From contig JAYWIR010000042.1 in the NCBI GenBank assembly GCA_036172245.1, positions 1,116,001 to 1,180,000 of the forward strand: a stretch of DNA of 64,000 nucleotides, given 5' to 3'. Both the position numbers and the translations under genes were made by a program. This DNA comes from Raillietiella orientalis. Its lineage: Eukaryota. Under the pieces are notes generated by a model, which was not told where the DNA came from, searched no databases, and saw only the letters and a program-made list of their open reading frames with translations. Of the stretch, positions 6,780-62,654 are shown in pieces (position 1 is the stretch's first letter; each line of letters starts with the position of its first letter).

Positions 6780-7110
6780 ATCGATGCTGGGTCACGAGCA
6801 ACCAGAGTGCAACCGGAATGCTCTCACGGTGTGAAGGAACATCCATAAAGGAAGCCTGCCAGAGGGTCACTACAGGATAGCGGTGACCCTTGGGGTGGTC
6901 TGGGTCCCCACTTTTCTCGGTTCCTCGAGACTCGGGGATAGGATGAAAGCTGGTGCAAAACGCGAGGAAGCAGGCTGCAAGGACAGCGAAGAAAATTTTC
7001 CCTCTGCGCCCGAGTCCCCTGGTCCAAAAATGATGCTGGGTTCTTGCCGAAGGGCCTGGATGGAGTCGACAGTACACCTCACTTCCTCGTTGCCGTGCAA
7101 GCGCCTCCTC
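6780..7110 (-). mobile_element. Decayed L1/Tx1-like RT-thumb fragment
   Basis: WTRGLGRRGKIFFAVLAACFLAF resembles WxxRxLSxxG[RK]; homologous to 44600-44720 and ~52620. Confidence 0.5.
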
Positions 7111-8399
7111 TCCGAACCCTGAGGCTCCCCGTCTTCTTCCTGGACCTGGCCGTCGCGGCACTGCTGCCGTCAGAAATCGGGAGAGGCCTTCACGAGTGGC
7201 ATCCGCGCCTCTGCCCTCCCTCTCCCACGGTGTGCATCTTTGCCTCAGGCGCCTCTCAAAACGTCATCAAGTCCGAAGATTTCTCTTGTTTGTCGGGTGA
7301 GGCAGGGGGGAATGGTGACAGCGAAGACGCTGGTGCCGATGGCAACTATGCGGAGGAGAAGGAAGGAAGGAAGGGTGTGAGGTGGGGGGGGAAGGGGAGA
7401 GAATCCCTCTTTTCTTAAGGTGGAATCCACATCAGGATCGTTTGTCTTCTCCTCCTGGTGGGGCCAAATGCACCGATGGCAGCAGTCTTGTTGCATTTGT
7501 TGATCCTCCCCAAGTCCTCCCTTTATTCCCAAGCTTGGGCTCCCTATGGGCCCATCCTTCCAAGTAGCTATCTGATAGACATCAAGGACATATTGATAAG
7601 TGGTGCTGCTTCCTAGACGAAGAGCAGTCTCGGCACGTGGATGGCCCCATGCCCCCTCGCCTTTACGACCGAGGGCGAGGCCGAAAGTCGCTTCTCCCAG
7701 GACGCCCTCAGGCGTGCCCTTGCGACGAGCGGCTGCAGGGAATATCACAATAGCTTCCGGCTTTGTTGCGGCGCTCACTGGACGCGTCTCCTCGGCATCT
7801 CGTGTCCATCCCCGAAGTGCGTGACCACATCTGAGACGCTGCCCCTCGTGGAAAGGAGTCAGCGAACAAGGATTCTTATCCAGGGAAAGAGGGTATGAGC
7901 TGACGCGACCTGAGGCTCAAGGAGACCTGGGATGAAAGAGTACCGGTCTCTTTTGATGTTTCCCCGTGACCTTGGAAAATTTGCGTACAGATTAGAACCG
8001 TTCGGAGTGGGCGTCCTCCCGCGACGGCTGGTGACTTCTCACGAGTTTCCTCATTCCGCGCCTTTTTCGGCTTTCTTCTTTTGCCTTGGGCAACAAGAAA
8101 AAAAGACCAACTGTGACCGTCCTGCGGTGTAGCCACGGGGGAAGTGGAGGTTCCTGAAACTCTCTTTCCTTCTTCTTCCGCTCCAGAGCGTTGTCCCCAG
8201 GAACGCACTTGATCCGACGAAGATCTGCTCTTCCTTTCCGAACAGATTCAGGCAGATCCCGCGTAGTTTCGGCCTCCTCTGCTCTTTTGAGGAGGCTCCT
8301 CCCTGCTCAGTTCGTGACTCTTCATGTGACTTTCGAGATCAAACGGCAAAACCTTACGGGTTACCACGAATCGAATGGACTCTGCTGTATCTCTGTGTC

Positions 8400-9150
8400 G
8401 GATCCCACCCTTTGTTCTCTTCGTCTAGCGATCGATCGGATGACCCGAGAAGCCATTCCGAACTCTCTCGAGTGTGGGTTCATTTCGGAAGAGCTGCATG
8501 CGGGAATGAGGCATACAGAGGGCACTGGAAGAGGTGTACGTTCCCTCTTTCGAATTCTTCGGCCTTCCGGAGATGGAGAGAATGGAGCGTGAAGCTCCGA
8601 TTTCGAAGAGCGACCAATGGACGGCATCCTGGTGCCTCCCTGCGCGCCAGATTCGGTAAATGGACCTTCTGTCTCTGTGAAAGGAAACGTCTGGATCTCC
8701 CGTCTTCCGACGGACTGTAAAGCTTGGCTGCAGGGACCAGTCCGAATGGGACCGGAGCAATCCGCGTGCCTGCGGTTCTCCGATTGCGGCCATCGCTCGC
8801 GGAGGTCCCACCAGCAAGAGCACGTGGACAGGGAGCACCTCATTTGCCGGAGCGCCGCCTTCTTTGGGAGAGACGAGGGACAGCTACCTTCCGGAAAGGC
8901 GGGAATCCGCCTACAGCGCTGCGGGACCAGAGAAACCTCTTGGTGAGTGGTCCGGCCGATACGCCGCAGCCCCGAGTTCATCCCATCCAGAGGACTGATT
9001 GCTTAGCCGGGAGGAGCTCCTGAAGATTCCCACGGAAGATCTCGCTCTGCTGCCTGCGGCATTTACGGACAATCCCACCCTTCCCCTCGTGCGACAGAAG
9101 CCAGTGCTGCTCAGTGGACCAGGAGAAGCGTGGTCCAGGGCTGCCTCCGA
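8400..9150 (-). mobile_element. Decayed L1/Tx1-like RT fragment
   Basis: EAALDH..LSSTGF (AFDxVDH..L...GF-like) near 9140 and ILSISGR near 8580, in the expected order. Confidence 0.4.
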
Positions 9151-12100: not shown

Positions 12101-12533
12101 TTCAGATTCGTTTTTCGTCAAGTAAGTGGAAGCATCTGTACCTGGATACGGCAAGAAAGCAAAGTTCACGCAAAAGGGAAATAAATAAATAAGAATAACT
12201 TGCCCTTTATTACATAGGTTTGCGACATTATGGATCCTTCCCCCGTAAGGCCCACGAGAGGAAGGTCGACTTTCGTCGGTGGGGTCGCCCGCGCGCCCTT
12301 GTGGCTGGTCCGAACGGCGGCGCCCCGACGGGAGTTCCGCTAGGCGTTGGCGACCTCGTGCGCGCGTCTTCCTAGCAGCGGGACGAGGGCCGTGGGAATC
12401 GAATGCGAGGATGGTTGCTAAGGTTTCCCTTCGTTTGGGAGCAGGGAGCGCGCTCTTCCCGCTACTTTTACTTTGTGCAGCGGTCCTTTGTGAGCAGAAC
12501 GGCTCGCATCTTTCACACCTTTTTAAAGCACTT

Positions 12534-12566
<33 letters not shown>

Positions 12567-12568
12567 GT
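12534..12568. repeat. (TG)n microsatellite
   Basis: tgtgtg... with two ta interruptions. Confidence 0.9.
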
Positions 12569-14209
12569 AAAAGCATCTTTTCTTTTCCATTTTTTCTTTC
12601 TCCTTTGTTTGTCCTGCAGGAACGGAGGCTTTATAAACTTGAGTTAGCGGAAGTGAAGTCTTAAGTGAATCGTCGGCTTGTAAATCAATTAACCCGAGCC
12701 GAGAAATTAGCAGGAGCCATCTCTGGCTGCACGGAGAGGGGAGCGGAAAATAATTACAGTTTCATCTTAATTTCATTAAACACTCCGAGCCCGCTTTTCA
12801 ATTCTTTAAGCTTTGGCAAGTTCTCCCACACTGCACACACGGGATGGACGCCCCATTCATCGATTGTCGTCTGGGGGTACGCTCCCGTTTGTGTGTGTGT
12901 GTGTGGGGGGGGGGGGGAGTTGGTTTGAAGATGCAGCCGACTCTTCCTTGAAGGGCAGTGGCAGTAGGGCCTCAGGAACGAGCTGCCCGCTGCGCGCGAT
13001 CCCGAGATCTATTCAGCTCCGCTAAACGGGCAAGGATACCCCACGAGGGATGCGGGATCGAGGCGCCTATCTCTCTCTTCCCATCCTGGAGCGCCTTCCC
13101 GACCCACAAACGGTTTGGTCCCCTCCCCGCGCGCGCTGCAGGGTACGCTCTTACTATTCTTCTTCGCTGGGCTGCCCCTCTACGGGAGGAGGAACAGCCC
13201 GCGTTCCCACGACCTTCCCCCGGCCTGTCTCGGCCCTGCGGTCACACGGCGGGTCCTCGCGTGCGCGCTCCCCTCGCGTACCCGAGCCGAGCCTTAGGCC
13301 TCATGCCGCCTCTCCGCTCCCCGTGGATGAACCCTTCCTTCTCCTCCCCGCGGCGGAAGTGAAATTCTGTCGGAAAGGATCCTCGAAAACGTCCCGCTCC
13401 TCCTCCCCTCTCCCTCCGCTTCCTCCAATGGAAAGGCCGGCATCTGAGCTGCGTTTGAGACGCCCGCCGTGCCACCTTGACGTGTGGCCAGGGTGAAGGG
13501 TTTCGCGCGCGCGTCCCGCATCACGCGCGGAACACAGAAGCAGAGATCAAGTCAGTCTCCGTCCCCCTGGCACTCCTGGGGACGCCGCGCGCGACGAACC
13601 GGGAGCATCCGCTCCCCTGTCCCTCCCGGGCGCAGTCCGACGCTCCGGCGATCCTCGCCCGCGGAGCTGCGCTCTGCTGCATGCCATCGTCGCCTCCTCT
13701 CCTGCCCGGCCGGTCGCGGGCCCGTTGCCGCCGCAGTCCAGGAGCTCCGCTTCCCGCGAGGCGCTCGTCCCCCACCCTTCGTTGGCTCTTCGCGGCGCCA
13801 ACGGGTTTGCGGAGGGGCCGACGAACAACGTCCTCCCTGCCACCGCTTTCCGATGATCCCGGCTGCTTTCGACGCACTCCTCCTCCCGCCCGCGTAAACG
13901 TGGCGGGCCGCGCTGATTGGAATTCCGAAAGGGGAGGGTCGCCGAACCTTTCGGCTGCACCGGCTTCCTCCCGGAAAGTTCGCGTCCTTGCGACGCAGGA
14001 GGAGCTCTTCCTCGCTGGGGAAAGGGAGAGGGAAAGGGGGGGCGGAAGCGATTCGCATGATGGCGCGCGGAGGATACGCGAGGCTCGATCCCCGCCTTGG
14101 AGGATGCCGGACGTTTTGGCCCACGCGCCTGGCAACGGTCCGGAAAACCCTGGGACTACCTCCGAAAGCTCTCGCGCGCATATCGACCTTTCACTTCCGG
14201 TAATCGTCG

Positions 14210-14650
14210 AGGGCTTTCAATGTGAAAGAAACATACATACGGGTGTAGGGCCATCGGCCCTATGTTCGGAACCCGTCGAGTAAGCGGCACGCGGACCGGC
14301 GAGGTTCGCCTCGACCGTGGAATGAGGGGAAGTGTGGGGGGGGGAGGAACAAACAAAAGTAAAAATAAAACACAAAAAATCAGGAGAGTGAGGGAAGGGT
14401 CGCTGTCCGCTGGAGGGCGTCCCCTGCATCCTTTTCAGGATGCCGGCAGGTTCCATCCGAGTGTGCCCCGGCTGGTGTCATCTGGCTGCCGTCTGCAGGA
14501 AACGGCAGGGAGAAGCAGATGGCGCCTCTGTCGTACTCCGTCCTCCTCTCACGTGGATCCAGGTCCCGCCTCCGCAATCTCGCGTAAGCGGCAGCAAAGA
14601 GCTGCTAGGGATGCGGCAAGCGGAAGGGCTTCCATAGAGACACCGTGGCT
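14210..14650 (-). mobile_element. L1/Tx1-like relic, 3' end
   Basis: ctgcatccttttcaggatgccggcaggttccatccgagtgtgcc matches ctgtatcctgtccaggatgctggcaagttccgtccgtgtgcc at 46342; same 3' UTR layout. Confidence 0.72.
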
Positions 14651-16888: not shown

Positions 16889-17076
16889 TGAATTAGGAAA
16901 TATTTTGTTGCAGAATGTGCTGAGAATGGAATAGATGGGGTTGAGATGATGGGACATATGGAAATTGTATTGATTTCCAGCCTCAATCATATTATTAGTC
17001 AATTATTGGTTGATAATGTGATTAAAGTTCTAAGAAAGACTAAAGGTAAGAAAATTGAAGATGAAGGAAAGAGAAT
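16889..17076 (-). pseudogene. nad2: NUMT: nuclear copy of the 5' end of mitochondrial nad2
   Basis: Sharp AT-rich island. In the invertebrate mitochondrial code (TGA=W, ATA=M, AGR=S) it reads ILFPSSSIFLPLVFLSTLITLSTNNWLMMWLSLEINTISMCPIISTPSIPFSAHSATKYFLI, matching the ND2 motifs SxNWxxxWxGLEIN and AxKYFLIQ. Confidence 0.9.
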
Positions 17077-17990: not shown

Positions 17991-20900
17991 GGAAAAGAGA
18001 GGCAGACGCCAGACAAACAGGCGCGCCGCCGTTTCGGCGGCGCTGGAACCTCCTCCTCCTCTGTTTGTCCCTCCGAACATCTCCTGCGCCACATGACTCC
18101 GCTGTCCGAGTCGCGACTGTCATCGGCACTTCGCGTCTCGAGAGCGGGTGGCGCCGCGATTCCGTTGCTGCCGCGATGTTCGCCCACCTTCTCGAAGATG
18201 GCGCGCGCGCTCTGCTCCTGAGGGACGGAGTCGCAAGTGCCGAGAGCTTCGTGTCACGAATCAGGAAAACCAAAAGGAAGACAAGAAGAGAGAGAGAAAC
18301 AGAGCTGAACTTGCGATTCAGGGCCTAAGGTGTTTCCAGCAAAAGTCCTTCGGGGCACCCCTAGGACTCCAGTGGGTTCCGATAATATCATATCCTGAGG
18401 CATCCCCGGGGTAAAAAAACAGGAACGCCAGCGATGCTCCGCGCTTCTTCGTCCCGAGCAGGAATTTTTTATTGAAAAATCAAATTGCTGGAAGAACGGT
18501 AGGGGAATTTCCAAGTAGGTGGCTGAGTGCCGTCGTAGGGGTCGATGAAATTTCCGGGACGCCATCAACTCGGACGAGTCTTGCGTACGGCCCTATTTTC
18601 CCTCCTCCCCTTTTTTCTTCTTTTGCTTTTTTCCAAGTGGAAGATCCTCTTCGGGAGGGACCCAGTCTTCAGGAGGTGCGTCGTTCTAGGACCCCGTTCG
18701 CCGTCGGTTCCGTTTCGTCTTTCGCCGGGAAGCGCCTCGGCCGTCCGCCTGCCCCTTCCCTCCCCCACTCACCCCCAGTGGTCTCCCGGCCGAACATGCC
18801 ACTCGGAGGTGAAGTCCCTCTTCTGCGGCGTGCGACTCGTGGCTACGATCCGCGGTCCCTGGGGAGCGAACGTCAAGCAACAAGTGTCCCCCCGCGCGAC
18901 CGGAGAGGCTGCCTCCTCCCACGCGGAACGGGTCCCTCCCTCTGCCCTCCTTCCCGTCCGAGGCTTCCGCTCCGCGCCCGCGGGTGTCCTCTCGGTGTTT
19001 GATTTCGGCTTCCCCGCCGCCGCCTCATCCCCGTCCGTCCGGTGCCCCATTTATTTCCTGGTCTCGGATTTCCGTAATTCCGTTACGGCGCCTCCTCCAC
19101 TTCGCCCGGATGTTTGCTTGAGATGCATCTCTTTCATCCCAAACTTCCAGGATGCTTTTTCGCCTCTGCCCAGCTCCCGCGCTTTCCTCCAGCCCTCCGG
19201 AGAAATGCTCTCATTAATCCTCGCTCTTGCCTCCCCATCTCCGAGGCGGACCTCTTCGGGAAGGCGGATGCGGACGCGGGCGCTCCGTAATGCGATTAAA
19301 AGACCGGAAACCGGACGTAGGTTCCGAGCAGCTACCGACGACGCACACCCGAATTCTCTCCCCTCCCCTCCCCCCCCTTCATCCCCCACTTGATCAGCAT
19401 CAATCTCATCCCACGGCAGCGGAACAAACGCGCGAGCGTGCATTGGCGACCGGGCGATTGTTCCTCAACGTTTCCTGATCCGCAGGCAGGTGCGAGGCAG
19501 GGTGGACCGAGTCCGCTGGCTGGGGTGGGAGGGGCAGCTTCCCGCCGTCTCTAGGGGCCTGAGAGGGGCGCGTGCGCGCAAACCGACCTTTCGACCCCGG
19601 CTCGCGGAGGCAAACATCCGGGTGCGGCGGTGAACTTCCCGCTCTGAGGAACGCGCTCGAAGATGCTGCAGCGCCTGACGATGGGCTGAAGGATCAGATC
19701 GGAGGCGTGATGTCTCCCGGAACGAAAGGATCAACAGGAAGGAATGCGGGAAAGTAAGGGAAGCTCCAAAATCCAGCGAGGGGCGAAGCCAAACTCTACT
19801 TCCGGAATTGCTTCCGGTTCGCCTGGCAATCGCATCGAGCGTTCGTTTTTGGAAGGCGCGCTTCCCCGACATCCCACACGTCGGTGTTTCCTCCCAGAGG
19901 GCTTCCCAGCAGAAAGCGGATTTCTTCGTGGCTGCAAGCGCCTGGGGTGTGCGCGGCTGAAGCTCGACCGAGCTCGCCGCAGCGTGTCGTTCGGGCGCTG
20001 CCAGCCTCCCCGTCTGTTGACCGGACGTGGGGCTCTCCTGGTAGAGGAGCAGTCGCGGATGCGCGCTCCCCGCTCTGGAAAGACCCGCGCCGGGCGCTCC
20101 CTGCGATCGCTTGGCTCCTGTGGTTTCAGCGGGAATACGTGTACACGAGCTCGTACGCACGCATCCGAATTGTTGTTACGTGCATACGTGGCATGGGCTA
20201 TGCGTGTGTGAAAGCACGGAATGAAGCCTGACGTGCGCGTGGGTGGGCGTGTAGTCGCCCTATCTCGTCTGGGCGTTTCTTCCAGGTAGCCTCCCACCGA
20301 GTTCAACAATCCCCTGGGGACCGCTGACCAGGCCCACATCGGGCAAGGAACGGGAGGGAGGAGGGGAGGGAGAGAGAGAGAGAATGGGAATGAAAAAACA
20401 AAAGAATGGAGAGAAAAATAAAAAGGGTTGAAAAGGACGAAGAAGGCAGTAGGGAGGGATCCACGCAGTCCGTGTGGTCGAGTCTTCTGCACGTCCTGTG
20501 CAGGGGTGCTAGCGAGCTCCTTTTCGTGTCTTCCAGGGTAGGTCCGTCTCGACGTGATCCCGCGAAAGAGGGGGGGAGGGGAAGAGGCGAGGTTGCGAAG
20601 AGGACGTTGGACCTCTTGTGCCTGCAGCGACGACAACGACGTGCGAGCAGCCGAACGCTGCGGTTGCACGCAGAGAGGGGAGGCGTTGTGGAGTTGCTCA
20701 CAGGGTGGGTGCGGTCAGCTGCAGGTCAGCTGCAAGGCGCCAGCACTTTGGATTCTCCTGTCCCTGAGGTTGCTTTCGCCGCGTTAGATGTATTCCTCCC
20801 CTCCTCCCTGGTACCCTTGAAAAATGCCGAATAGCCGTCGGCAGCGGGCGCTCCCACGGTGGGGTGTCGTTGGACACACGGAAGGGGTGTGCCGGACGCT

Positions 20901-24900: not shown

Positions 24901-25533
24901 CTTGCTCTCCGGAAACGATGCCTGCGGCCTTTCCCAACTGCGTTGCTCATCCTGCTCACGGAAGTGCCCTTCGACATCTCTCGACGACCTCCGAGGGCGC
25001 GCCTTCTTGAGCGTCCTTGGACGTCCGATTCCCTTTCCTTTGGTGAGCAGCCCCGAACAGAGAGCTCTTGAGCGGAAGAGACTGCGAAGGACTTTCCTGC
25101 CTCTCCAGTGCCAGCAGCGAATGATGGCACCGCTAGGCATGCTGGACACATCGGGGAAAAAGCCGGGCGTCCAAAGGGAAAACGTTTCTCTCTCCTTCCC
25201 GCTCAGAATCAAAACGGAGAAGGGGGGAATCACCACTGTCATTCGTCACCTCCAACGCAAGCATTTCGGGGCGGGTCCGTGCGAGCCACCGGGAGGTCTC
25301 CGGACCGGACAATGCGCGTGCGTTTCCAAGCCGTCCTTCCCTCTCTCCCCCTCTTCCCAGCACGTCTGTTTCGACCGAGAACTCCAGTGCGCTATCCATG
25401 GGCAAGGGACTTCGTTCCCAGGAAGCGCGCTGTCCTCTATGGACAAGCTGTTGCCTGCTCGGTGCCGGCGTGGAGGCTCTCTCGCCCTTCCCTCCTTCCT
25501 CCCCTCTCTGTCCCTCTTTTTCATTCCAGGCAG

Positions 25534-25657
25534 ATGGACCGCATGAGTTACAACCTGTCGGAGATCGTCTTCGAGTCAGAAGGGGGACTGGAGAAGGTCA
25601 AAAGGATCCGGGAAGAGTGCGCGCTGCGGAACCAGGCTGACATCGAGGCAGCAGAAG
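25534..25657 (+). CDS. Dh31-R: GPCR coding exon 1 (N-terminus, first ectodomain Cys)
   Basis: Pyrimidine tract + cag precedes ATG; MDRMSYNLSEIVFESEGGLEKVKRIREECALRNQADIEAAE; AG|GTACGG donor in phase 1 matches the next exon (G+AC=Asp). Confidence 0.75.
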
Positions 25658-28600
25658 GTACGGGGTCTGTCGCCGCTTCCGCTGCAGGAACTGCAGCCCT
25701 TCGGAGAGTATCGTCCTTCCCCAAGCCACTAGGGAATGCGCTCATGCGCAGATTCTTCCGCATCCGCTTGTTCGCTGGCGCTCGTTCCCGCTCAGAGGTT
25801 CTTCCCAGGACGGGAGTCACGTGGGAAGCCTCACGGGTTTGTTGCTCTCCGGAAATCTTAAATTTCCTTCCTCGAAGGCTTCAAACTGCCTCCTCCCTCC
25901 TTCGAAAAGTGGAGGAGAGTCGGATCGACTCTTGACGACTGGGCGAGGTGCGCCCTTGAGGGCACACCGCGAGAGGGGCAGAACAGCAGCCTTGAGACAA
26001 GCACTCCCGCAGCTAACTCGTGAACCAGCACCTCCCTCACGAGCCATCGCCACTGGCGTCCCGGATCTCCTCCCTTCTCTCCCTACTCTCTCCACCGTCA
26101 TCGGCTAGGAGACTTTCAAAGGAAGAAAAGAAAAGGGGCGTGATTTGTGGGTGGTGATTTGTGCGCCTAGACTAAGTGGCTATTTTCCCCAGGTCGGACA
26201 AGCGGAGGAGCAAACTTATCAAACAAACTTTTAACAGCTGTCCATTTTTTTCCTGTCCTTTTTCTGTTTTCACCGTTTGCAACTGTACTGCTTTTGTTTT
26301 TAACTCATCCTTTCACTTCACTTTCACTTCACTTATCGCATTTGCGTCTTTGGAAGTTTGGGTTCAGGGTGGGTCGGGGATTGTTCCTCTTACCTGGGCA
26401 TATTCACCCACCTTCCTGAGGATGCAGAGATATGTCCAGGATGAGACCCTACCGCGGCTCCTGATCCCGATCCCTCTCATCAGCAGGCCTTCCAAGATCT
26501 CCGATGCCGGTACTCTTCGTCCGGATGTGTGCATCTTTGCCCTCCTGATCACAATGGCTTTGATGAAGAGGGAAAGCGTCGTAAGAACCATCGGGTTGTA
26601 CAGGGAATTCCGCTCCCCTGGAACAAGCTCGCCAGACTTTCGATCTTCTTTCTTCGCTGCAGGCAGGTCACCGCCTTTACCGCTTGCCAATCGGGGCGCA
26701 GCGCTGGGCAAGTGAACACGTGGAGCTGCCTTTCTTCCGCTCCACACGCCTTGCGCAGTCCATCCTGGATGTCGCCGGTGCAGTGTCGCAGTCTGGAGCC
26801 ACTCAGGATGCCTCCGTGGCTAAGTGGCTAAGACCGCTGCTCGACGGTGCGGCTGGCTGCTTTGCGAGAACGCAGCCTATAAACTTTGCGACAATGGCCG
26901 TCACCATGGCAGAACTTCGCGCTGTTTGCGCCTAGGCCAACAATGGTCACTCGGCCAACAATGGTCGAGCAAGCCGGTGTAGAGCGCACACAGGTTGCTA
27001 TGGGCATTTATAGTTGAAGACTGAAACGAGATAGAAGATACTGCTGGCTGCGTGCTCACCGGGAGATAAAAGAGCAGGAAGAAGGGGGAGGATGCTGGTA
27101 GAAAGACTGTGACTCGAAACGAAAAGCACTGCTTCCGCATTGGTATCTGCCGGAATTGCACGACAGAAGTTTCGTTTTCGATACGCGAAATGTTTCGTGC
27201 AGGCTGGGTTTGGGGCAGATCCTTCGAAGAGCTCCCGTAGAGAGCGCTTTCCGTAGAGTGGTTGGGAGGCGATCTCCTTATGAGACTTCCCTGGAAACTC
27301 GAGTTCTGCAACAACGAAGGATCTTGAAGGGAGAGCGTGCTCACAGAGAGAATGCGGGAGAGTGCACGGGACAGGTTCAAAAAAAAAAAATTAGAAGGAA
27401 TATTTTTGGAATCGGAATGCCTACGAAATTCCTTCTCCGAGGAAGGCGGGTTGGTTGTCACCATTCAACGAAGATATGTTCCTTTTTTCTCTCTCCTTCA
27501 TGCTCAGCCACATGCCATCTGAAGTCACCTGAAGCTATAAACTGAATTGGCTCGGAGATGCACGAAGATTAGCGGCAGCTGTCGCGCAGTTCCGAGATTC
27601 CGAAATGTTCGAGGACAGACACTCCGAAGGAAGGTTCGGACAGTGAACTGCGGGTATCGGACTGCTAACCTCCAGCGTCCAGCTAGAACCAATCGTTATT
27701 GGGAAGCCTATCTTACCAGTGTCTTTCCCGGATTCTAATTATGGGGGTATCAGGCCTTTCAAGACCAGACCGCGTTTTCTGAGGCTGGGAAAGTCACAAA
27801 GGCTGCCTTTGGAGCAGTTGGTTCTCCTGATAGGGACCTTCCTTGCTCAGGGCAGTAAGGAGCCTATGGCATCCCTCCTGATGTTCTCTGCAGAAGAACT
27901 ACCGACGGCTGTTGCATTCTCCCATTTCGCGTGCCAGCAGCGGTTCTCGCACGGGCTGCAAGGTGGTCCGAATCGGTCTTCTGCGCAAAGCACCAGTGCG
28001 GAAGGAGCGCCACCGTGACGACAGTCTTTGCGTGAGTCTTTCGCGCTACACACAACCTGGCCAGTCAGTCAGTTCCCAAGAGTTCATTGCGGAGCTTTTT
28101 GCCTGACGAGCACGTCGATTCGCCGGCGTCCCTCGATGATGAGAACTGGATCATTCTCACCCCCAACAGAACGCGAGCGGTCTCCTGAAAGAATATTCTC
28201 GCTTGACCACCTCTCGCCTGCCTGGGGAAAGTTTCAAAGTCAGTGGTAGCCGCGCGACAGATGGGGGAGATGTCCATGCCATTTCCGATGCGAAGAATCA
28301 AGCTGGAAGCGGTCGAGTTCTCCTCGAGCTTCCCATTTAGTGAAGGAGGGACCTAGAAGGGGACTTGGGGACGAAAACGTTTTTCTTGCTGGGTGGCAGA
28401 GGAATGCAATCGGAGGATCCGATCTCGGGACTGGACAGGAAGCGTGGACGGCGCGCCCTCCAGACTCATACCCTTCCGTTCACGAGAGGAGGGAGGACAT
28501 CCCTGGAGTTCACTTCCCACGGGATGAACTTCTGCGCCACTTTCCCGAGACCTCCCCGAACCTCGTGTTTTCGAGGATAGGGAAGAGGAGGGATGAAAGG

Positions 28601-34600: not shown

Positions 34601-37600
34601 GCAGGAGCCCTGCAGAATTGAACGCTGCCCTCGTAACTCTTGAGAGGGCCGGTCTACCGGGAATCGCGAGGAGCGCGAAGTGAGGGTCAGCGGGTCTCCG
34701 GACGGCCTCTTCCTCTCTCCCCTCCTCCCCTACTTCTCGCTTGCTTTCGGGGGAAGGGGGAAGGGGAGGAGTGCGCCTCCCGTTTTTCCTTCTCCGGAAG
34801 GAAGCGGTCACGCTTCCGGGGTTCCTCCCGCCGTTCGTTTCCCTCGACCGCTGTCCACCAGATACGGACGGCGTCTTCTGAAAGGACGAGAATGGGGGTC
34901 GCTTCCCTTCGCCTTCCCGGAAGATCTCGGCACGCATTCCTGGAGCCGCCGCTGTCCCTACCCATGTCCCGCCTCTTTCGCTGGAGGGGGCCTGCGCTCC
35001 GTATGCAGATTCTGGCCCTGCCTCCGGGTGGTCTCCGCGGCGGGGTGCCTGGAGAGCAGGGCGGGCTCTCCGCCGTGACTCCTCCGGATCGCACGCGCAG
35101 GCCCGCCTGACCTTTAGCTGACCTTCCGGTTGCTTCTTCCTCTCACACGTGCCGGCGGGCTCCAGATCCCCTGATCTATCCCCCGTTGACTCCTCGAATC
35201 CACCGCTCCGCGCCCCTCTGTCTCGCTGCCTGGCAACGCAACACCAGATGCGTGTTTCTGAAATTCGTGGGTTCTTCCTGCTTTCCTGCCTTCCTGCTTC
35301 CCCCCCTCCCTCCGGCCCATCTCCCTGTTTATTTTTATTTTATTTATTTATTTCAGCAAAGAATGAGAATTCTAGCCGTGTACGTCACTGGGTATTCAAT
35401 CTCCTTAGCAGCGCTTGTCATATCCATGGTGATATTCACATCTTTCAGGTAAGTGGGGAGTCCCGGCGCGCGCTGCTCGCGTGGGGCGGCGGGGAAAGCA
35501 CGCGCAGTGCTGGCACGCTTGCGGGGCGGCGGCCGCCGTCCAGCACCTACCGCCCCGTCCTCACACGGCGAGGAGGGAGGAGGACGCAGGGGCGCGGGGC
35601 AAACCAGAGAGGCGGAGGGAATCGACGGTCCCGCCCTCCGCCGTCTTCAGCGCCACGGCGAGGATGCTGGACGATAGCTCGCCTGAGTGGGCCGTCGCCG
35701 CCGCTGCCTTTTTCTTGTTTCTTCTCCGGAGGGAGCCCTCGGAAAGGATGCACTCCCGGCGTTTCCTCCTCTGAAGGGAGCCCCGAAGGGAATAGCGCGC
35801 TTCTGGCACTCTGGAGAGGTATCGATCCACCAGCTCCACTATACGAGATGGAGGGTCCTCCCCCCCCCGAGGGGAAGAAGGAAAGCTCCCTTTGCACAAC
35901 CGGAGGGAAACCCGAAGGCGAGCGGCTCCTGGATCTCTGGAAGGACCCGGGAGGTCAACTCCCAGTCTCGGCCGGTCAACGAGGAGCATTCGGTTTCCAC
36001 CATTGCCGCATCCTAGAGACCAATCAGCGCCATCTCGCGGGAGGAACTCGAACCCACCACTCACCCTTTATTTCTCTGGAAATCGATGCCTCTTCCAGAA
36101 CAGGGTTCGAAGAGGGAGGAGCGGCCGAGGAACCCGGAGGCCCTCGAGATAGAGGGTCACCTGGGACGGCTTCGCCTGCAAAGGTAACAAAGGGTTCCGG
36201 AAGCAGAGCGATAGGAACGGCCCACGGGGGGCCAAAGAGCGGCACGCAGGCCCACCGAGCGAGCGGCGGCAGCACGCGAAACGGCAGGAGGGAGAAGGGA
36301 AGGGGAGGGTGGGGTCGCGGGAGGCGTTGGGGCAGGAGGGCAGCGCGCCCCCGGCAGTTCGGAGGTCTCCCGTTCTCGTGTCCTTGCAGGTCGCTGGACT
36401 GCACGCGGATCCGCATCCACAAGAACCTCTTCTGCTCCTTCATCATGAACAACGCGGGGTGGATCGTGACCTACAAGTGCGTGGTGGAGAACCCCGCTGT
36501 CATCCGGGAGAATGGGGTGAGACGCGCGCGCGAAGTCGGCGCACGCCTCGGCGACGGGGAGAGGGGAACGGGGTCCCTGGCAGAAGAATGGGGGGGGGGG
36601 AGGGGACGAACCGACAAAGGGAAGGTGCATAGACCGAGGTAACGGCGCGCGAGCGGAGGGAGTGCCTGCCGTTCGCCGGGAGCATTCCCCCTCCCTCCCC
36701 CACCCCTTTCCTCCTCTCTCTCGCAATGGTCGGGATGCCGGGATGACCTCGGCCTTCTCCGGGCCGAAGGGGACCCCGGAGTTCGCACCGCTTTTCGCGC
36801 CTCCAGCGGAGGTCCGGGCGCGGGGGTGGGGCGGGCTGCTTCCCCTCTTGCTCTTCTTTCCCGCCGCCGCAGTTTCCATGCCAGGTGCTCCACGTTCTGC
36901 TGCACTTCTTCATGGTGTCCAACTTCTCCTGGATGTTCTGCGAGGGGCTGCACCTGCACCTCGTCCTGGTGTACTCCTTCTACGCGGAGAAGGTCAGGAT
37001 GGCGCAGTTCTACGTGGTCGGGTGGGTCCTGCCGTCCCTTATCATCGTCGCCTACTCCACGGTCCGCGCGTTCATCGAGAAGAGCACCGCGGTGTGAGTA
37101 CAGCGGGCCCAGGGAGCCCCGCCCTCTTTCCGTCAAGGAAGGGGCGCCGCTGCGCTCTCTTACAGCTGCTGGCTCAACGAGTGCCGCTCCACCTACATCC
37201 TGTCCTTCTTCGTCATCTCCTCCATGGTCACCAACCTCTTCTTCCTGATCAACATCGTCCGGCTGCTGGTGACCAAGCTCAAGTCCTCAGTCACGCCCGC
37301 TGCCACCAGGAAGAGCACCCTCCGCGCCGTGAAGGCCACCCTCATCCTGATACCCCTCCTGGGGCTGTACTATATGCTGCTGCCCTTCCGACCTGCTGAC
37401 CACAAGTCCCCGGAGGGCATCGTCTACGAGTACGTCTCGGCCATCGTCACCTCCTTCCAGGTGAGCGCCCTCTCTCCCGGGTTCCCCCTGCGCTACCCCC
37501 TCGCCTTTCCCGAGAGAAACCTCCTTGCTCCTTCCTCCTTCCTGCCGTCTGCCAGGTCCGGCCTCTCTCCCTCTTCGGGGCGGGCGGTCGCCTGGCAACG

Positions 37601-44329: not shown

Positions 44330-45560
44330 TAAACTCAGGCTGCATGCCAAAGTCTTCTAGAATCCTCTGATTCGATCAAGCAGAGATGCTTTTCCGCCGT
44401 CCTTTTCCACATCCCGATACGGATAGTGGAGGAAAAAGTTTCGGGCGTCAGTGGCAGCGTCCTTCCCGCCTTATTATGATCTCTGTTCCAGAACTTTGGG
44501 AAGAATGAGGACTGATGAGAGTGCCTGCGACACGTACCGTGGGTCAACAAAAGGAGAATGGGAGCGCGGAATTCGACAAGCCGGTATGCCTTTTCAGGAT
44601 GAAAACAGAATTGTCGACTTGGTTCCGAGAGACTGCTGGGAAAGGTGAAAAGTCCTCGGCCCGAGTCCCCAGTCCACATGGCAATTGGCGCAGGGAGTCC
44701 CAGTAGTCCCTGCCCTAGTTCCCCAATTTCGCGACCACTGTGGACATCTCTTGCGCAATTGCACATCTTCCTTCCACGCAACTAGGCTGCAAGCCATCCA
44801 CATGGGTAGGCAAACGTCCCCTGGATGATCGTCGACTCGCTTGTGGAGCTTTCGCGTCCCTTTGCGGGACTCCATCCCGCTCAGGCAGCAGCCATGCGCG
44901 CTCTTGAGCGGGAACCAGGTGCAACAAGAGCAAAGAGGAGTGTGTGCGTGTGTGTGCCCCGGGCTTCCGGCAGTTCAGGGTCAGGAGAGCGAGCTGCTCG
45001 TCGACCTGACACCACGAACAGCCGTTGCCACTTCCAGCTGCAAAAAAACAGGATGACGTTGGATCAGCGACGTGAGAGTCGGCACGCGGCGACTGAGGAG
45101 CTGAAGAGCACGTTTCCGAAATCTCTAGGGGAGCCATCGCTCGAGGTCTCGTTTCAGCCGGTGGAGCATAAGGACCCGAAGAGCACCCGTCGTTTCCCAG
45201 GATGCTTTGCCACAGAAAGGTTGCAATGCCATCGGTGCCTCGACGGAAGATTAGGGACCTTCGCTGTTACGTCCATTCCTCACTCCCTTTTTTTTTCCGA
45301 GGGTAGAAAGCAACGTACTTTTGAATAAACACGCACGTTTGAACGGAAAGAGGATGGTTCCCAAGGGGTAACACTCCCCAAGGAGCATGCGCACTCTTTC
45401 CTGTAGAAATTCCACGTGAGCTGATAGCGGTACAGGCTGTCGCGTTGCTAGGAGCAGCAATGACTCCGCTCGTCTCCGAACTTCGCAGTGCAGAATTGTT
45501 CCTTCCTTCGAACTGGCAGGCCGGCCATGGCCCAGTCCCCTTCCTCTCAAGAAACGCCTC
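44330..45560 (-). mobile_element. Decayed L1/Tx1-like RT relic
   Basis: gcccgagtcccc.gtcca shared with ~7008; degenerate collinear RT motifs (LLLLA..HVEFL..LLG, GCS, WTG/GLGPR). Confidence 0.55.
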
Positions 45561-47130: not shown

Positions 47131-47319
47131 AAGCCAGGCAGTGCGGTTGGTGGGGGATCAGGAGATCCAGGTGTTTTTTCTCCTCCTGGGATGAAGAAAA
47201 TGTCCTGTTTTCGCTGCTTTCCTTCCAGCTTTTTTTTTTTTTCCATTAGGGTTTTTTTTTTTTTTTTTGGTTTGCTGAGTACTCGAGAACATTTCGCCTA
47301 GGGGCTCGCGAAGCTCTTT

Positions 47320-47950
47320 GAAACCATCCCTGACACCCGAGGATGCGTGGAGCTCTTCATGTTACAGGTTACCCCTAGCAGGAATCACCCCACGAATCCA
47401 GGAAGGACTCATGGCCAAGAGCGAGTCCGTTCCTCCCGTGCTCAGGAGGGAAACCCGAAGGCAACCCCTTCCTCACTCTCCCTGGAGAGACCCCACAGAG
47501 GGGGCCGCCCCTCGTTCCTTTTACGACGGCTCCCTTCGGAGAGGAGAGCCGCTCCTTGTTTCCCCCTCTGGAGAGAACTCCGTAGGGATGCGTCCCAATA
47601 TTTCTGAAGAGGGCGCTTCCCGAAGAGAGTAGGGCGCTCCTTACACTCTGGATAGGCAGCAATCCACCAGCTCCATGGTACGAGATGGAGGCCTTTTCCC
47701 TCTTTCTTCTCCATCCCTGAGGGGAGAGACGGCTCCATTTTTACAACTGGAGGGGATCCCGAAGAGAGACGACTCTTTGATTCCTGGAAGGACCCCAGAG
47801 GGTTAACTCCCAATCTCGGACGGGGGGATCCGACTTGCACCAGTGCCGTCCCCAAACGAGCTAACCAGCATCATCCGCCAGGAGAGACACCAAACCCACG
47901 ACGCACCCTCCATTTCTCGGCATCTACCCTTCTCCCAGGGCGGGATTCGA
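47320..47950 (-). mobile_element. L1/Tx1-like relic, post-RT region
   Basis: DNA and peptide homology with 35720-36110 (PRLGV..GSFQ, SG.PPVV, ISY.GAGG..P.QS.RSAL). Confidence 0.65.
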
Positions 47951-48699
47951 ACCTTCGAACCCGCTGCGCGCGGGCCGACACACTCCCGCGCTGTCGGCCA
48001 CGTGGCTTCGGTCAACAGAGGTTTGGCCCGTTTCCGGTCGGGAATGCGAGATTCGGGGCTTCCGGACCACTCCGACGGTCGCGACGAGAAGGAGGCTCCT
48101 CCTCCCAGTGGACGATCGGTCTACAGGAAGACTGGGAGACAAGGCCACGGACGCAAGCCCGAAGGCGCCGCTTCCGTCGACTCGGGCGCTCGCGCGAACG
48201 AACCCTTCGCCTGCGGAAGACTGGAGATGCTTCCGACTGCACGATCCTCTCAACCTCACCATTGAAGCCCTCGGAGAAAATCCAGGCTTCGACAACCTGC
48301 GTGTCTCCCCCCCCCCCCTCCTTTCCCAGGGCTGGAACAGAGGGATGCGTTCCCGTGCCCGAGAGTGACGCGGGGAAGGGAGGCGAAGTGGTGCGAGCGA
48401 ACGTTCCAGGGTCATCGACTTCTGTTCCTGGAGCACAGCGGTTCCCCTTCCGACTCACGTGGAGTTCCGGGGAGCGTCCGCGAGATGTCAGATCTCCACT
48501 CTTCCGTCCCGCTTCCCTTCCCGCGCTTGCGCGCTGCTTCCTTCAATCCAGAGGGATTTGTTCCGATCTTTTCAACCGGAGAGGATGACGACGACGATGA
48601 TGATGTGTCTTGTCGTCGCTCATCTCACGGATCATCCCCACGATTGACCACAGGTGCAAAGGTGCTTCGTGCGATCGGGAACGACTCGAACGAGAATCC

Positions 48700-50120
48700 C
48701 CCCAGGGGCCATCAGTCACGGAAGACCAGCTCCCCTCTTAAGGGTATCCAATCCTTTCGGAATCGAAATGGAGGAGCGCGCCTCGGACATCCGGCTTTGA
48801 TGGCGAGCCATTTCGCGGCTCTCCAGGACTCCCGCGGGGTGCAGCGATTTACTAAGAGGAGAAGGGGCTCCCTCAACAGGAACGAGCGATCTGGTCCATC
48901 GACCCCAAAGGAGTTGGACACGACCCTCAGACTTCGAACCAAGATTTTTCGGCTCCCGACACTGCGATTTTTCTTCGCTCGCCCCCGGCAGGATGTTTGG
49001 CGTGTCCTGGAATGGGGAAGCGCGCAACGGGGAAAGATGGCGGTGCATGTGATGGAGTGGAGAGGGAAGGTGTCGGAAAAGCGGATTTCGGGAAGAGGCG
49101 TTTCCCAAGCTCCGTGTGGCGATGAACAGGAAGCGGATGTTTCGTCGATTCCCGAAAATTCCGGATCTCTTCCATTCCTGGAAGGATCCGGAGGTCGACT
49201 TTCCCTGTCCCAGCCACTCATCGGGGGGCATCCGGTTTGAACCACTACCAGTGCCTCCACACCCGAAAGAATGTAGGCCAACCAGAATCATCTTGCGGAG
49301 GGAACTCGGACCCACGACGCACAACCCCTATCTCTCGGCGTCGATTCTTTCCGCGTATTGGAACTCGCGACGCTTGGAGGTGCCACGCGCGTAGACCTCA
49401 ACCACGTGGCCCCGACACGAGCAGCGCAACCTCAGAGTGGTGATTCTCAAAATGCTCTGGCGCAGTGCTCCCGCGTCCCTCTGAACTTTCCAGGCCCTTC
49501 GAGCCTCCGACCTCGGCAAACGGAATTTTTGCTCCTGCAACTACCGTGCTTCACCGGACAGTCGGGGGATGCGGGAGCGAGTCTCGCATCCCGGTTTCCG
49601 GACCGCACCGGCGGCACGGCGCTATCTTTTTCCCCATAGTCCGGCAAGAAGCCATGCCCTCGATGGCAGCTCCGCAGAGGATCCTCCCGAAACATCTGCA
49701 GGCGTCTCCGCCATCCAGCCAGGGAATCTGGATTCCCAAAGAGCTGAGGTTTGAGATTTCTCTCGCGGCGCGACTTGCATCCGGGACACTTTCAGTTCTG
49801 GGATCGGCTCCTGATAAGAAAGTAGCCAGTGGGGTGGAAGAAAGCAGACTGCGTCCCTTGGGGGGACTCCTTTCAGAAATATGCACGGGAGATCAGGACT
49901 CTCTGACGTTTCTCGTTTCGGCTGGGATTCATGCTGTGAAATCGGAAGGAAGGCGCGCTCATTTTCCGTGACTTGCAGCGAGATGGAAGACATGAAACCG
50001 AAAGAGCACGAGGCGCAAAGCGCGTCGCGACGTCCAGTCCCAGTAGGGCATGGAGATGCAGGCGCACTCCAGGATGGCAGCCTGGGTTCTCCATTACCTC
50101 CGCACTGCCGCCTCAATGGG
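48700..50120 (-). mobile_element. L1/Tx1-like ORF2 relic (RT C-half to C-terminus)
   Basis: Collinear decayed motifs LSSLGIQIP (KYLG-like), RLPRSE (LPxxxGG-like), WRAAKWLAI (cf. WNARRTPKWDAI). Clear DNA homology to 51060-51335, 47560-47940, 35720-36110 and 22900-23235. Confidence 0.7.
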
Positions 50121-51059
50121 GAGCGCTCTTATCTCATCTATCAAACGCCAAACAAATTGCCTGCCGCGGATGACGCTCAAGTGCTTCCTTCGCGTATTCA
50201 GCCCCGGGCTTGCTGGGAGAGCTTTCCGATGCAACTTTCCCTGTACTTTGCCGACGAGCAGGTACGGCCGCCCGCATGAAAGTGCAGATCGCTTCCCCCT
50301 CCCTTCTCCCCTCCCTCTTGAGTTCAGACTGCCTGCGGCACGAAGAAAATTATTGCACGTGCATGGAAATAAACCGAAATCCTTTCAAATCAAAGCGGAA
50401 GATCCCTCCTCTCTCATCTCTGACTCTGGACGCGCAGGAGAAAGATGCATGCATCTCGACACGAGGTCGCCCGGCAGGAGCAGCAAGGCCCTCGGCTGTT
50501 TCCTTTCAGGCAAGCTCCACAAAGACTGCTTTGTTCGCTTCGCTCTCAGCAGGATTGTAGAACAATGTTCCCATCGTACACAAAACACTTCATCCTAGTC
50601 CCCGCTTACCGTCTTCCCAAGATGCTACTCGAGGGAAAGGAGTTGCGCTGTTCTTTCAGTGGCTGCTGGGAAAAGGCACGTCACGCACTCCTCCTTGTAC
50701 ACAGAAAGGGATGGAGGGCAACAACTAAACTGCACTCCAGAGTCGAGCGTTCCGGGACTCACCTATCCCGAAAGGAAGATGACCAGGAAGGCCACACCTG
50801 CCTTTTCGACCTCAGCCCAATACTCCGCTAAGCAGCGTTAACTCGGCCACCTGAAATGCCGTGCGTTCCAGGTCCTCATGCCTGCTCCAAAGCTTAGAGT
50901 CAGGAGGTGAGGATACTGGAAGCTGAACTCAAGGAATGAACCTTTCCGGTGGGTTTCCTATGGTCCAGGTCTTCAACTGTAAAGCCTCGTATGAAAGCTC
51001 GCAACTACTCTGCGACCTCCACGGGGCAAGCGAAGAAACTTCGCTTGCCCCGTGGGATG

Positions 51060-51335
51060 GACGGCACGTGCTAAAATGGCAAAGCGCGCGAAGTAGAAAG
51101 GTGGTGCACGTGGTGGAGTGGAGATGGAAGACACCGGAAACGTGGATTTCGGGAAGAGGCGTTTCCCAAGCTTCGTGCACGATGCGCAGGAAGCGGCGGA
51201 TGCTTCGCGGAGGGCAGCGCGAACCCAGAATGGTGATTCTCGAAATGCTCTGGCGCAGTGCTGAATGAACTCCTGCGTCTCTTAGAAATTTCCAGACCCT
51301 GCGAGCTTCCGACCTCGGCAAACGGAATTTCTTCC
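51060..51335 (-). mobile_element. Internally deleted paralogue of the 49.0-49.5 kb LINE relic
   Basis: Shares ggatttcgggaagaggcgtttcccaagct with 49084 and ggtgattctc.aaatgctctggcgcagtgct...ccgacctcggcaaacggaattt with 49439-49528. Confidence 0.75.
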
Positions 51336-52259
51336 GAGAAGGATTATTCCCGAAAGACACCAGTTCCAGCTCAATCTTGAAGTGGTTGGATTGGATCGGC
51401 AGCACCCTTCCCCTTCTTTTCACTTCTGCACACGTGTACACTCACGTAACTGGTTGGATGAGGAAACGTGGTCGGCGAGGTTCCCGCGTCCTAGTTTCCC
51501 TGAGCAACAAATTTCTTGAGTGATAGAAGAAGATATTTTCGTTCACCCCTGCTTCGTGCTCAGCTGCTGTTCGGCAGCAGATGGATGCTGGTCACCCGCT
51601 GCGGACTGAGCCGTGCCTGAGTTGCTGCCCACGGCTCCGGAAGCGGACCTACAAAGCGCTCCCTAGCGGCACACCTGCTGTCTCTGTTGAGCGCGTAAGC
51701 GTTCGTTGCGACGAGGTCCATGGAGTAGAACCACATAAGTGTCTCACCCTAAAAGTGGGAACTCAAGGAGCGAACCTACGGGAACGGTTGTCTGGATTCA
51801 TCCTGTTGCAGATCTGTGACACCATGGCAGGTACAGAAACGGAAACCATCGTGGCCTATCTGATATGGAAATCAATGCTCGAGATGGAATTCCGGAAAGT
51901 TGCCAGGTATCCTCGTGGTTCCGACTGGCTGTGTTCGACAACCTTACCATAATTGTTTACACAACAGGCAGTGGATTCCACGAGTTGATGCTTGGCATCC
52001 ACATTCTTGAACTCTGCAGAAATGGATGCGACTTTAGAATCATTGACCCATTAATCTCTCTTTGCAAGATCCTTCGGAACTACCTGCATCTTCACAAACA
52101 TACCGCTTCTGCCGAAGCACAACACGGTTCCGTTCTTGTACTAGGGTCTCCAGAGCAATACAAAGAGGTGTCGTTGAGGCTAGGGGTTTGGTGCCCCCTT
52201 TGTGCGTAGAACGAGAAAGACCTTTCCTCCCATCCTGCTTGACTGCAATGGAATCCGAA

Positions 52260-53600
52260 GGTGTGCCTTTCTAGCGCCTTCTTCTTTCCGGGAGACGACA
52301 TGCCAAGAAGATTCTTCCGCTCCAACGGCCTCACCCTCGCTTCGGTGGTCGCAATTCAATGCTTCATCCGAGGGATCATCTCGTTCCGCTTAGAGCTGAA
52401 AATTTGGCAATGTAGGCGGGCAGCCTTTAAGCCGAATCGCCCTCATCTCTGGGGAGCACTGCAACTGCTCTGCCTGAATTGACAGAAGAGAACAAATGCT
52501 GACGGAATGCTGCGCAACATCCTGATGAGAATCGCCAGGACTCAGTGACACCCTCCAACTTCTCCTACCTCCAGATAAAGCTTTATTTGGGAATCTTCTA
52601 CTCCTTAACCCCTTTGTCCAGGACCATCCACCTGAGCTATGCAGTGGCATAGCTTTGTCTCCTGTGCTGCATATTTTTCTTTTGCATACGTATTCTGCTT
52701 GACTAAACGGTCCAACGTCGCCGGATGCGGAAGCATTCCTCCTCTGTGAATCCGGAGACCTCATCTCATGACCTCATTGCGTGCAGTTTGGTGGATGGAC
52801 AACGAGACAGCTCACCAAAGTTCACCAGCTCGGGAGTCGGGGGCTAACACAGCACCGCTTCCTCAATTCTATCCTTCTGATGCTGTACGTTCGCATGGAA
52901 CCGCAATGTTAATGTAGCTTTCTCCCTTGTGCCGGACCTCCTAAAGAAGTGCCAGATCAAAGGTGCGAATGGTGGTTGCTGCTGCAACCACTATCCGCCT
53001 CTGCCAATGCTCTATGCATGACTGTGTATCCTGTTGGCGTTTCAATTCTCTACGCGAATGTGGGGAGCGACGTGGCCTCCTGCATCATTGCTGGAGAATG
53101 GGAACCTTCCGTATCAGTTAACGGGCGGCCCTACGGCAGCGTGGATATGGCTAGAGCGTCAGCACGCCTTTGCTCTTCCTTCGCTACTTTGTTTCCATGG
53201 TGAGGGTTCTAGAGAACCGATCCTCATGCCGCCGCTTTTTGGAAACGCTTTCGGTCCGTCCCTGCATTCTCCCATTTTCTAGTCTTTCACTGGTGCCAAT
53301 GCACGATAACGCAGCTATTGCTGCCGACCGCACCATTTCGCATCCATTTCGCCCTCCGAGTTGCGGACTGGCTGCGGTTGCCTCGTACGCGGGGTTTGCA
53401 GCCTGAACCAGCTGTGGGAGTAGAACAGACTCTCGTGCACACTTCGGTCGAATAGGTCTGTTCTAGGATGATGGACTTCGCTGCCCGACCCAGTGTCACG
53501 CTCGGCACCTTGGAAAGCAACTTGACGGCAATGTTCACAAGCGTGATGGGACACCAGTTACCCAGGCAGTCCAGGTCACACTCAGATCAGAGGATGCCCT
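52260..53600 (-). mobile_element. L1/Tx1-like reverse transcriptase relic
   Basis: DLDCLGNWCPITLVNIAVKLLSKV...LGRAAKSIILEQTYS (53576-53450) matches the Tx1 RT motif NWRPISLLNxDYKILSK..II..DQTY; WTKGL (~52620) and RSEG (~52340) follow at the expected spacing. Confidence 0.72.
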
Positions 53601-62645: not shown

Positions 62646-62654
62646 TTTTTATTT

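What the first reader, a model, noticed from the sequence alone, without database searches (positions are those of the whole stretch)
6780..53600. About 20 diverged L1/Tx1-like relics over ~47 kb, all on the minus strand: candidate uni-strand (flamenco-like) TE trap
Seen: every fragment I could assign (endonuclease, RT, thumb, zinc knuckle, 3' UTR) reads on the minus strand. They lie upstream of, inside and well downstream of the + strand GPCR, and 44-53.6 kb is an almost head-to-tail chain. The copies are very divergent, so this is not one recent tandem duplication. Known: antisense bias of LINEs in introns is usually partial; Drosophila flamenco is a uni-strand piRNA cluster of mostly antisense TE fragments; many Tx1-clade elements insert at specific sequences in a fixed orientation. 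Inference: either a long + strand transcript makes antisense small RNAs against this family, or the elements target a strand-asymmetric sequence or each other. Caveat: I found later copies by similarity to earlier ones and may have missed + strand copies.
Basis: partly seen in the sequence, partly recalled or inferred. Interest (0 to 1): 0.72.

Follow-up and report, generated by a model that had tools for sequence, protein, structure and literature searches.

The report
Ordinary retroposon debris on both strands
The dead jumping-gene pieces around this receptor gene mostly, but not all, point one way, at a level chance can give, so this is not a one-strand transposon trap; one piece does sit at a spot in a short repeat that this jumping-gene family hits again and again elsewhere in the genome.

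Summary
Profiles built from this genome's own repeats find 15 insertions in 6,780-53,600: 12 minus and 3 plus (8.5-9.1, 16.3-16.5, 52.1-52.6 kb), plus a fourth plus copy at 59.3 kb. So 'all minus' is false. Five of the 15 are pieces of a tRNA-headed SINE, not L1. Repeats cover 16% of the range, like the downstream flank (9-17%). 12:3 gives p=0.035 before allowing for the 975 windows scanned. Neighbouring copies elsewhere are not co-oriented (27 same, 25 opposite). The dense 44-54 kb stretch lies between the + strand class B GPCR and a convergent minus-strand kinesin. No RNA run could be tested. Verdict: ordinary old LINE/SINE debris, perhaps with the usual antisense bias inside a gene. Side result: this L1-group LINE inserts at fixed sites in the SINE. 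One site (sense, ~nt 810) is filled in 25 selected loci and in the window's 46-48 kb copy, with varied 5' truncations and locus-specific duplications. Another (antisense, ~nt 170) is filled in 8 loci. The scan had noted this targeting before on other DNA of this genome; it is a new member of the known class of Tx1-type elements that target other transposons.

The parts
8524..9111 (+). 3' part of ORF2 of an old family-B L1-group LINE (plus strand)
   Evidence: nhmmer 104.6 and 18.4 bits; tblastn to family-B ORF2 aa 968-1061
14197..14632 (-). 5'-truncated LINE-B 3' end
   Evidence: nhmmer 206.6 bits
16275..16498 (+). SINE body fragment (plus strand)
   Evidence: nhmmer 117.5 bits; alignment of 14 sequences reads as reverse complement of the SINE
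20388..20561 (-). LINE-B 3' fragment
   Evidence: 44.7 bits
21368..21783 (-). LINE-B 3' end
   Evidence: 268.9 bits
22917..23260 (-). SINE body fragment
   Evidence: 171.8 bits
23544..24089 (-). LINE-B 3' end
   Evidence: 396.4 bits; genome-wide relatives
25530..25657 (+). First recognisable GPCR coding exon; preceded by a splice acceptor, so the gene starts further upstream
   Evidence: Inferred from splice signals and reading phase into the 34.18-kb exon; no Pfam match on its own
26153..26829 (-). 3' end of an old family-A L1-group LINE, in a GPCR intron
   Evidence: tblastn E 8e-31; nhmmer 240 bits
34179..37810 (+). Class B (secretin-family) GPCR exons, closest to calcitonin/CGRP receptors; a last exon probably lies near 39 kb
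   Evidence: Pfam HRM and 7tm_2; PDB best hits CGRP and calcitonin receptors, E 1e-17; translations
35711..36111 (-). SINE fragment in a GPCR intron
   Evidence: 286.3 bits
46040..46085 (-). Continuation of the SINE beyond the insertion site
   Evidence: Matches the sequence that follows the empty site in L173 and L182
46083..47190 (-). 5'-truncated LINE-B (about 1.1 kb: ORF2 C-terminus with zinc knuckle, 3' UTR) inserted in sense at the SINE's ~nt 810 site
47195..47973 (-). tRNA-headed SINE, nearly full length
   Evidence: nhmmer; family consensus head folds as a tRNA in ARAGORN at a relaxed threshold
48973..49528 (.). Copy 1 of a local ~290-bp duplication (copy 2 at 51039-51330), split by a SINE fragment; polarity unknown
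   Evidence: blastn 77-81%; no other copy found in the genome
49153..49411 (-). SINE 5' fragment
   Evidence: 143.6 bits
50737..53098 (-). One old LINE-B ORF2 (endonuclease and linker) in three collinear pieces: 52934-53098, 51357-51740, 50737-51024; weak scores (11-41 bits)
   Evidence: tblastn
52082..52579 (+). LINE-B 3' end with zinc knuckle (plus strand), lying between the minus-strand ORF2 pieces
   Evidence: tblastn E 5e-7; nhmmer 81.6 bits; alignment
53397..53577 (-). RT fragment of a second LINE-B copy
54814..57468 (-). Kinesin gene, convergent with the GPCR; its 3' end faces the 44-54 kb stretch
   Evidence: Pfam Kinesin in five ORFs, best E 1.3e-42; tail translation
59304..59639 (+).
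   Evidence: hmmsearch 30.5 bits; tblastn E 4e-6

Best explanation
The region is a large GC-rich GPCR locus that gathered, one at a time, old 5'-truncated copies of the genome's common L1-group LINEs and of a tRNA-headed SINE. The LINE pieces arrived by target-primed reverse transcription (inferred from truncated 5' ends and flanking duplications in relatives); the SINE's own partner was not identified. The 12:3 minus excess is mostly chance seen after picking the window. It may be helped by the usual loss of sense-oriented insertions inside the GPCR transcription unit (inferred: the LINE 3' end carries an AATAAA). One minus copy owes its orientation to site-specific insertion into a minus-strand SINE (shown).
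For: 12 minus and 3 plus, binomial p=0.035; LINEs only 8:2, p=0.11; whole window 12:4, p=0.077. About 34 of 975 windows would reach p=0.035 if each held 15 insertions (975). Against the 200 kb of flank (17 minus, 17 plus pieces), Fisher p=0.064. Coverage 15-16% against 9% and 17% downstream, 3% upstream. Genome-wide motif counts 426/446 and 568/598 forward/reverse. Among the 200 listed of 2,038 motif matches, consecutive copies 3-50 kb apart: 27 same, 25 opposite. LINE neighbours in 80 relic loci: 57 same, 44 opposite, p=0.23. Both intronic copies inside the mapped gene are antisense. Antisense intronic bias of LINEs is reported in Drosophila (PMC2911107, passages).
Against: The skew is not nothing. 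Nine independent minus insertions run unbroken from 20.4 to 51.7 kb (chance about 7% in 45 events), and the comparison with the flank is borderline (p=0.064). The GPCR 5' end is unmapped, so intronic selection is unproven for 14-24 kb, and it cannot apply to 44-54 kb unless transcription reads through. The upstream 100 kb is much poorer in these repeats (3%).
Confidence: 0.8

Rival explanations
1. A long + strand GPCR transcription unit (5' end near or before 14 kb, read-through to about 52 kb) imposes a real antisense bias by selection, without small-RNA function, and accounts for most of the skew.
For: The 25.5-kb exon has a splice acceptor, so the gene extends upstream. The nearest recognised upstream genes lie about 12 kb before the window. 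From 14 to 36 kb, 7 of 8 insertions are antisense, and the single sense one is a SINE body piece.
Against: No transcript data (gene ends unmapped). A complete-looking sense LINE 3' end sits at 52.1-52.6 kb. 44-54 kb is closer to the 3' end of the minus-strand kinesin.
Confidence: 0.12
2. A uni-strand, flamenco-like piRNA source: a + strand transcript is cut into antisense small RNAs against these LINEs and the SINE.
For: A majority of pieces are minus (12 of 15; 83% of annotated bases), and 44-53.6 kb is 38% repeat.
Against: Three plus copies in range. 16% repeat cover. A coding GPCR in the middle. The copies are old; no young copies of the active families A and B were found here, although a working trap should hold recent captures (inference). 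Described flam-like loci are large, LTR-rich and Gypsy-specific (PMC10643416, passages).
Confidence: 0.04
3. The region is a decayed head-to-tail array produced by self-targeting, like the young family-A arrays elsewhere in this genome.
For: Young same-strand arrays with about 5.6-kb spacing exist (C71, C114, C53). 12 of 28 family-A 3' ends are followed by the next copy's 5' end.
Against: Window pieces are separated by kilobases of non-repeat DNA and belong to family B and the SINE. Of the 4 in-range LINE-B 3' ends examined, only the 46-kb one is followed by a recognised repeat.
Confidence: 0.04

Closest known systems
Dispersed old L1/SINE insertions with partial antisense bias in genes (PMC2911107, passages read)
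   Same: 5'-truncated copies on both strands, excess antisense to the host gene
   Different: Part of the skewed region is probably intergenic, and gene limits are unmapped
Drosophila flamenco and flam-like unistrand piRNA clusters (PMC10643416, passages read)
   Same: Majority of transposon pieces on one strand
   Different: Here 16% repeats, LINE/SINE rather than Gypsy, three opposite-strand copies, a coding gene inside, no small-RNA evidence
Tx1-clade LINEs that target other transposons: crocodilian Tx1-Mar in Mariner-N4_AMi (one antisense site near 240, one sense site near 830), Xenopus Tx1 in Tx1D (PMC4494074, passages read)
   Same: APE-type L1-group LINE inserting at fixed positions of another repeat, at one site in sense and at another in antisense, with target-site duplications
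   Different: The target here is a tRNA-headed SINE (and older LINE relatives) in an invertebrate-type genome; Tx1-clade membership was not tested by phylogeny
Human LINE-1 ORF2p
   Same: Best solved-structure match of family-B ORF2 (E 7e-45, against 2e-13 for R2); endonuclease then RT
   Different: Distant. ORF1 of family A has a CCHC zinc knuckle, and site preference is strong

Membership tests
Uni-strand (flamenco-like) piRNA cluster | Transposon pieces almost all on one strand | tested here: not met
   12 minus and 3 plus in range, 12 and 4 in the window
Uni-strand (flamenco-like) piRNA cluster | Strong transposon enrichment over the surroundings | tested here: not met
   15-16% against 9% and 17% in the two downstream 50-kb blocks; 3% upstream
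Uni-strand (flamenco-like) piRNA cluster | Enrichment for antisense Gypsy/LTR elements | tested here: inconclusive
   No Gypsy-type Pfam match in 221 ORFs scanned from parts of the window; no LTR library was searched
Uni-strand (flamenco-like) piRNA cluster | One-strand precursor transcript and 1U piRNAs | not testable with these tools
   No RNA holder listed
L1 group of non-LTR retrotransposons | ORF2 with N-terminal AP-like endonuclease followed by RT | tested here: met
   Pfam Exo_endo_phos and RVT_1 in intact relatives of families A, B, C; best PDB match LINE-1 ORF2p
L1 group of non-LTR retrotransposons | 5'-truncated copies flanked by target-site duplications | tested here: met
   11 of 25 filled SINE sites show duplications scoring 8 or more; truncation points vary
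Tx1 clade | RT phylogeny groups with named Tx1 elements | not tested
   No named Tx1 reference set was available; outside relatives are at most 28% identical to the family-C query
Tx1 clade | Target preference for a repeat (a trait of many members, not all) | tested here: met
   Recurrent SINE sites
tRNA-derived SINE | tRNA-related 5' head | tested here: met
   Consensus head called a 75-nt tRNA by ARAGORN at 85% threshold; no individual window copy passes ARAGORN or Rfam
tRNA-derived SINE | Many dispersed non-coding copies | tested here: met
   1,166 matches to one 16-nt motif, control 17
tRNA-derived SINE | 3' tail shared with a partner LINE, and flanking duplications | tested here: inconclusive
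   3' end heterogeneous after the ~nt 810 site; heads show no shared 5' flank; partner not identified

The most novel reading that the evidence does not exclude
The L1-group LINEs of this genome have split into lineages that each aim at a different fixed site in other retroposons. The sites are two or three in a tRNA-headed SINE (sense ~nt 810 and ~nt 635, antisense ~nt 170) and antisense sites in older or sister LINEs. The SINE would then serve as a landing pad, a target class I did not find in print. Young intact copies of related families exist, so target choice could be tested biochemically.
Probability: 0.6. Interest if true: 0.45.

Novelty: new member of a known kind. Interest (0 to 1): 0.22.

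Why it matters
The finding as posed matters little: it is ordinary repeat debris, and it shows how searching by likeness to earlier copies inflates strand bias. The side result would extend the known targets of sequence-preferring L1/Tx1-type retrotransposons from DNA transposons, LTR elements, small-RNA genes and microsatellites to a SINE. The genome still holds intact relatives, so endonuclease target choice could be studied there.

Tried and rejected
My first reading, that the 46-48 kb element is one 1.78-kb SINE with a fixed LINE tail, was rejected: junctions differ between copies and empty sites exist. Extra relics at 6.8-7.2 kb and 44-46 kb: nothing above reversed-sequence controls with hmmsearch, tblastn or a frameshift-aware scan (one RT peak at 44.3 kb tied the best control). 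The zinc-knuckle-like ORF 44718-45266 matched only itself in the genome, and 36.2-46.0 kb has no dispersed repeat in the DNA search (that search skips common words). The B1, B1b and Bx profiles were dropped from strand counts because their seeds hold nested pieces of both orientations; one of them gave a conflicting plus call at 50736-50955, which I kept as minus on collinearity with ORF2. Eight planned 50-kb control blocks from other contigs were not obtained, so controls rest on 200 kb of flank, 80 relic loci and motif positions. Telomeric role of the young arrays: orientation at contig ends is inconsistent, not pursued. ARAGORN and Rfam found no real RNA gene in the window.
Full report
Setting. 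The window is G000:C42:1116001-1180000 of a 210-Mb animal assembly rich in reverse-transcriptase sequences. It holds a + strand class B GPCR closest to calcitonin/CGRP receptors. Its first recognisable coding exon (25530-25657) has a splice acceptor, so the gene starts further upstream. A minus-strand kinesin (54.8-57.5 kb) and a + strand RpS17 follow. The nearest recognised upstream genes, a chaperonin and a CHORD protein, lie about 12-14 kb before the window (76 of 148 listed ORFs scanned). The dense 44-54 kb stretch is therefore most likely intergenic, between convergent genes.

Annotation. I took intact LINEs and relic loci from the same genome, built DNA and protein profiles, and searched both strands against reversed-sequence controls. 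Within 6,780-53,600 there are 15 insertions. Twelve are minus: LINE-B 3' ends at 14.2, 20.4, 21.4, 23.5 and 46.1 kb; a family-A 3' end at 26.2 kb; one broken LINE-B ORF2 at 50.7-53.1 kb; an RT piece at 53.4 kb; SINE pieces at 22.9, 35.7, 47.2 and 49.2 kb. Three are plus: LINE-B at 8.5-9.1 and 52.1-52.6 kb, and a SINE piece at 16.3 kb. A fourth plus relic lies at 59.3-59.6 kb. Intact relatives have endonuclease plus RT and match human LINE-1 ORF2p best, so 'L1 group' holds; Tx1-clade membership was not tested. They may be real but very decayed, which I cannot exclude.

Is the skew more than chance? 12:3 gives p=0.035, LINEs alone 8:2 give p=0.11, and the whole window 12:4 gives p=0.077. The 200 kb of flank give 17 minus and 17 plus pieces (Fisher p=0.064). 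The scan lists 975 windows with notes in this genome, so about 34 such skews are expected if each held 15 insertions. There is no general long-range co-orientation: 27 same and 25 opposite for consecutive copies 3-50 kb apart among 200 listed of 2,038 motif matches, and 57 against 44 for LINE neighbours in 80 relic loci. Against my reading: nine independent minus insertions run unbroken from 20.4 to 51.7 kb (about 7% by simulation), and the flank comparison is borderline. Repeat cover is 15-16%, against 9% and 17% downstream and 3% upstream. Flam-like clusters were found as large LTR-rich regions whose bias comes from Gypsy elements (PMC10643416, passages); this window is not like that. A partial antisense bias of LINEs in introns is reported for Drosophila (PMC2911107, passages; its supplementary count table was not read). 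Small RNAs could not be examined.

What the 46-48 kb element is. It first looked like one 1.78-kb composite. Earlier scan notes on other pieces of this genome suggested a LINE that homes into a SINE, so I tested that. The SINE has a tRNA-like head, a body of about 810 nt, and at least 1,166 motif matches. In 25 of 30 loci a LINE-B 3' piece follows the same SINE position in sense. That fraction is inflated, because the query held both parts. The 5' truncation points differ (about 810 to 2,100 nt from the LINE end, with a cluster near 950). Eleven of the 25 show flanking duplications scoring 8 or more, and six of these (L027, L028, L031, L037, L040, L046) duplicate locus-specific sequence. That points to separate insertions. 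Some loci share a junction (L026 with L032; L033 with L034), so not all 25 are independent, and the LINE end was poorly located in four loci. In 11 loci picked on the SINE body alone (of 40 scored), this site is filled in 1 (L175, with a duplication). It is followed by a shared continuation in 3, the same continuation that follows the window's LINE piece, and by other sequence in the rest. Three of these 11 carry a LINE-B piece in antisense at SINE nt ~170. That site is also filled in L026, L047, L049, L100 and the downstream flank, 8 in all. A third site (sense, ~nt 635) is filled in L028 and L045, and an antisense site in older LINE-B ORF2 in L094, L098 and L119. In the 30 loci, a different 3'-end variant, only 3 have a same-strand SINE end upstream. 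Of 98 LINE-B 3' ends examined, 70 had no recognised repeat as 3' flank, so targeting is a preference, not a rule.

Mechanism. Shown: orientation counts, repeated use of the same nucleotide, varied truncation, duplications. Inferred: insertion by target-primed reverse transcription, with the site chosen by the endonuclease. The terminal bases of the LINE resemble each target, but this may simply be the duplicated target. Because sites come in both orientations, targeting builds short nests, not one-strand regions. In the window it fixes the orientation of one insertion.

Known relatives and novelty. Tx1-type elements that target other transposons are known; Tx1-Mar uses one antisense and one sense site in a Mariner element (PMC4494074, passages; supplementary figures not read). 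Four searches (listings only, apart from that paper) showed no SINE-targeting LINE, but the library lacks most subscription journals and Repbase reports. The scan itself had noted the idea several times from single windows; the multi-locus test here is my own.

Verdict. The uni-strand trap is not supported. The region is ordinary LINE/SINE debris with a modest skew. The SINE-targeting side result is a new member of a known kind. Interest 0.22.

Noticed in passing
G000:C71:68-98 kb, C114:88-125 kb, C53:320-350 kb, C150:13-24 kb (L001-L012, L016-L017): Young, nearly intact family-A L1-group LINEs form head-to-tail arrays of mixed subfamilies with about 5.6-kb spacing; 12 of 28 3' ends are followed by the next copy's 5' end.
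   Followed up: partly
L053, L059-L061, L063, L069, L070, L012, L016: In 9 of 28 family-A 3' ends (one being the reference locus itself) the flank is the same position of another LINE's ORF1 in antisense, and family-A and family-B ORF2s sit head to head at many loci. This suggests a young LINE that targets another LINE.
   Followed up: partly
window 48973-49528 and 51039-51330: A ~290-bp sequence present only twice in the genome search, both here, 77-81% alike; one copy ends in a 37-bp near-perfect hairpin at 51019-51055. Origin unknown.
   Followed up: partly
G000:C30:2717-2728 kb and C81:71-78 kb (L013, L014, L018, L064): A tandem group of RT-bearing elements of a separate family, which I took to be R2-like from their look only.
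   Followed up: no
window 1-54000 versus 54000-64000: Sharp G+C step from about 55-65% over the GPCR locus to 29-45% over the compact kinesin and RpS17 genes; similar alternation along C42.
   Followed up: no
window 30784-31002: A (TCA/TCT)n-type microsatellite of about 220 bp in the long GPCR intron.
   Followed up: no
L043 and L044 (G000:C18:2706778-2716952): Two equally scoring copies of a LINE piece in inverted orientation about 6 kb apart, probably a local inverted duplication.
   Followed up: no
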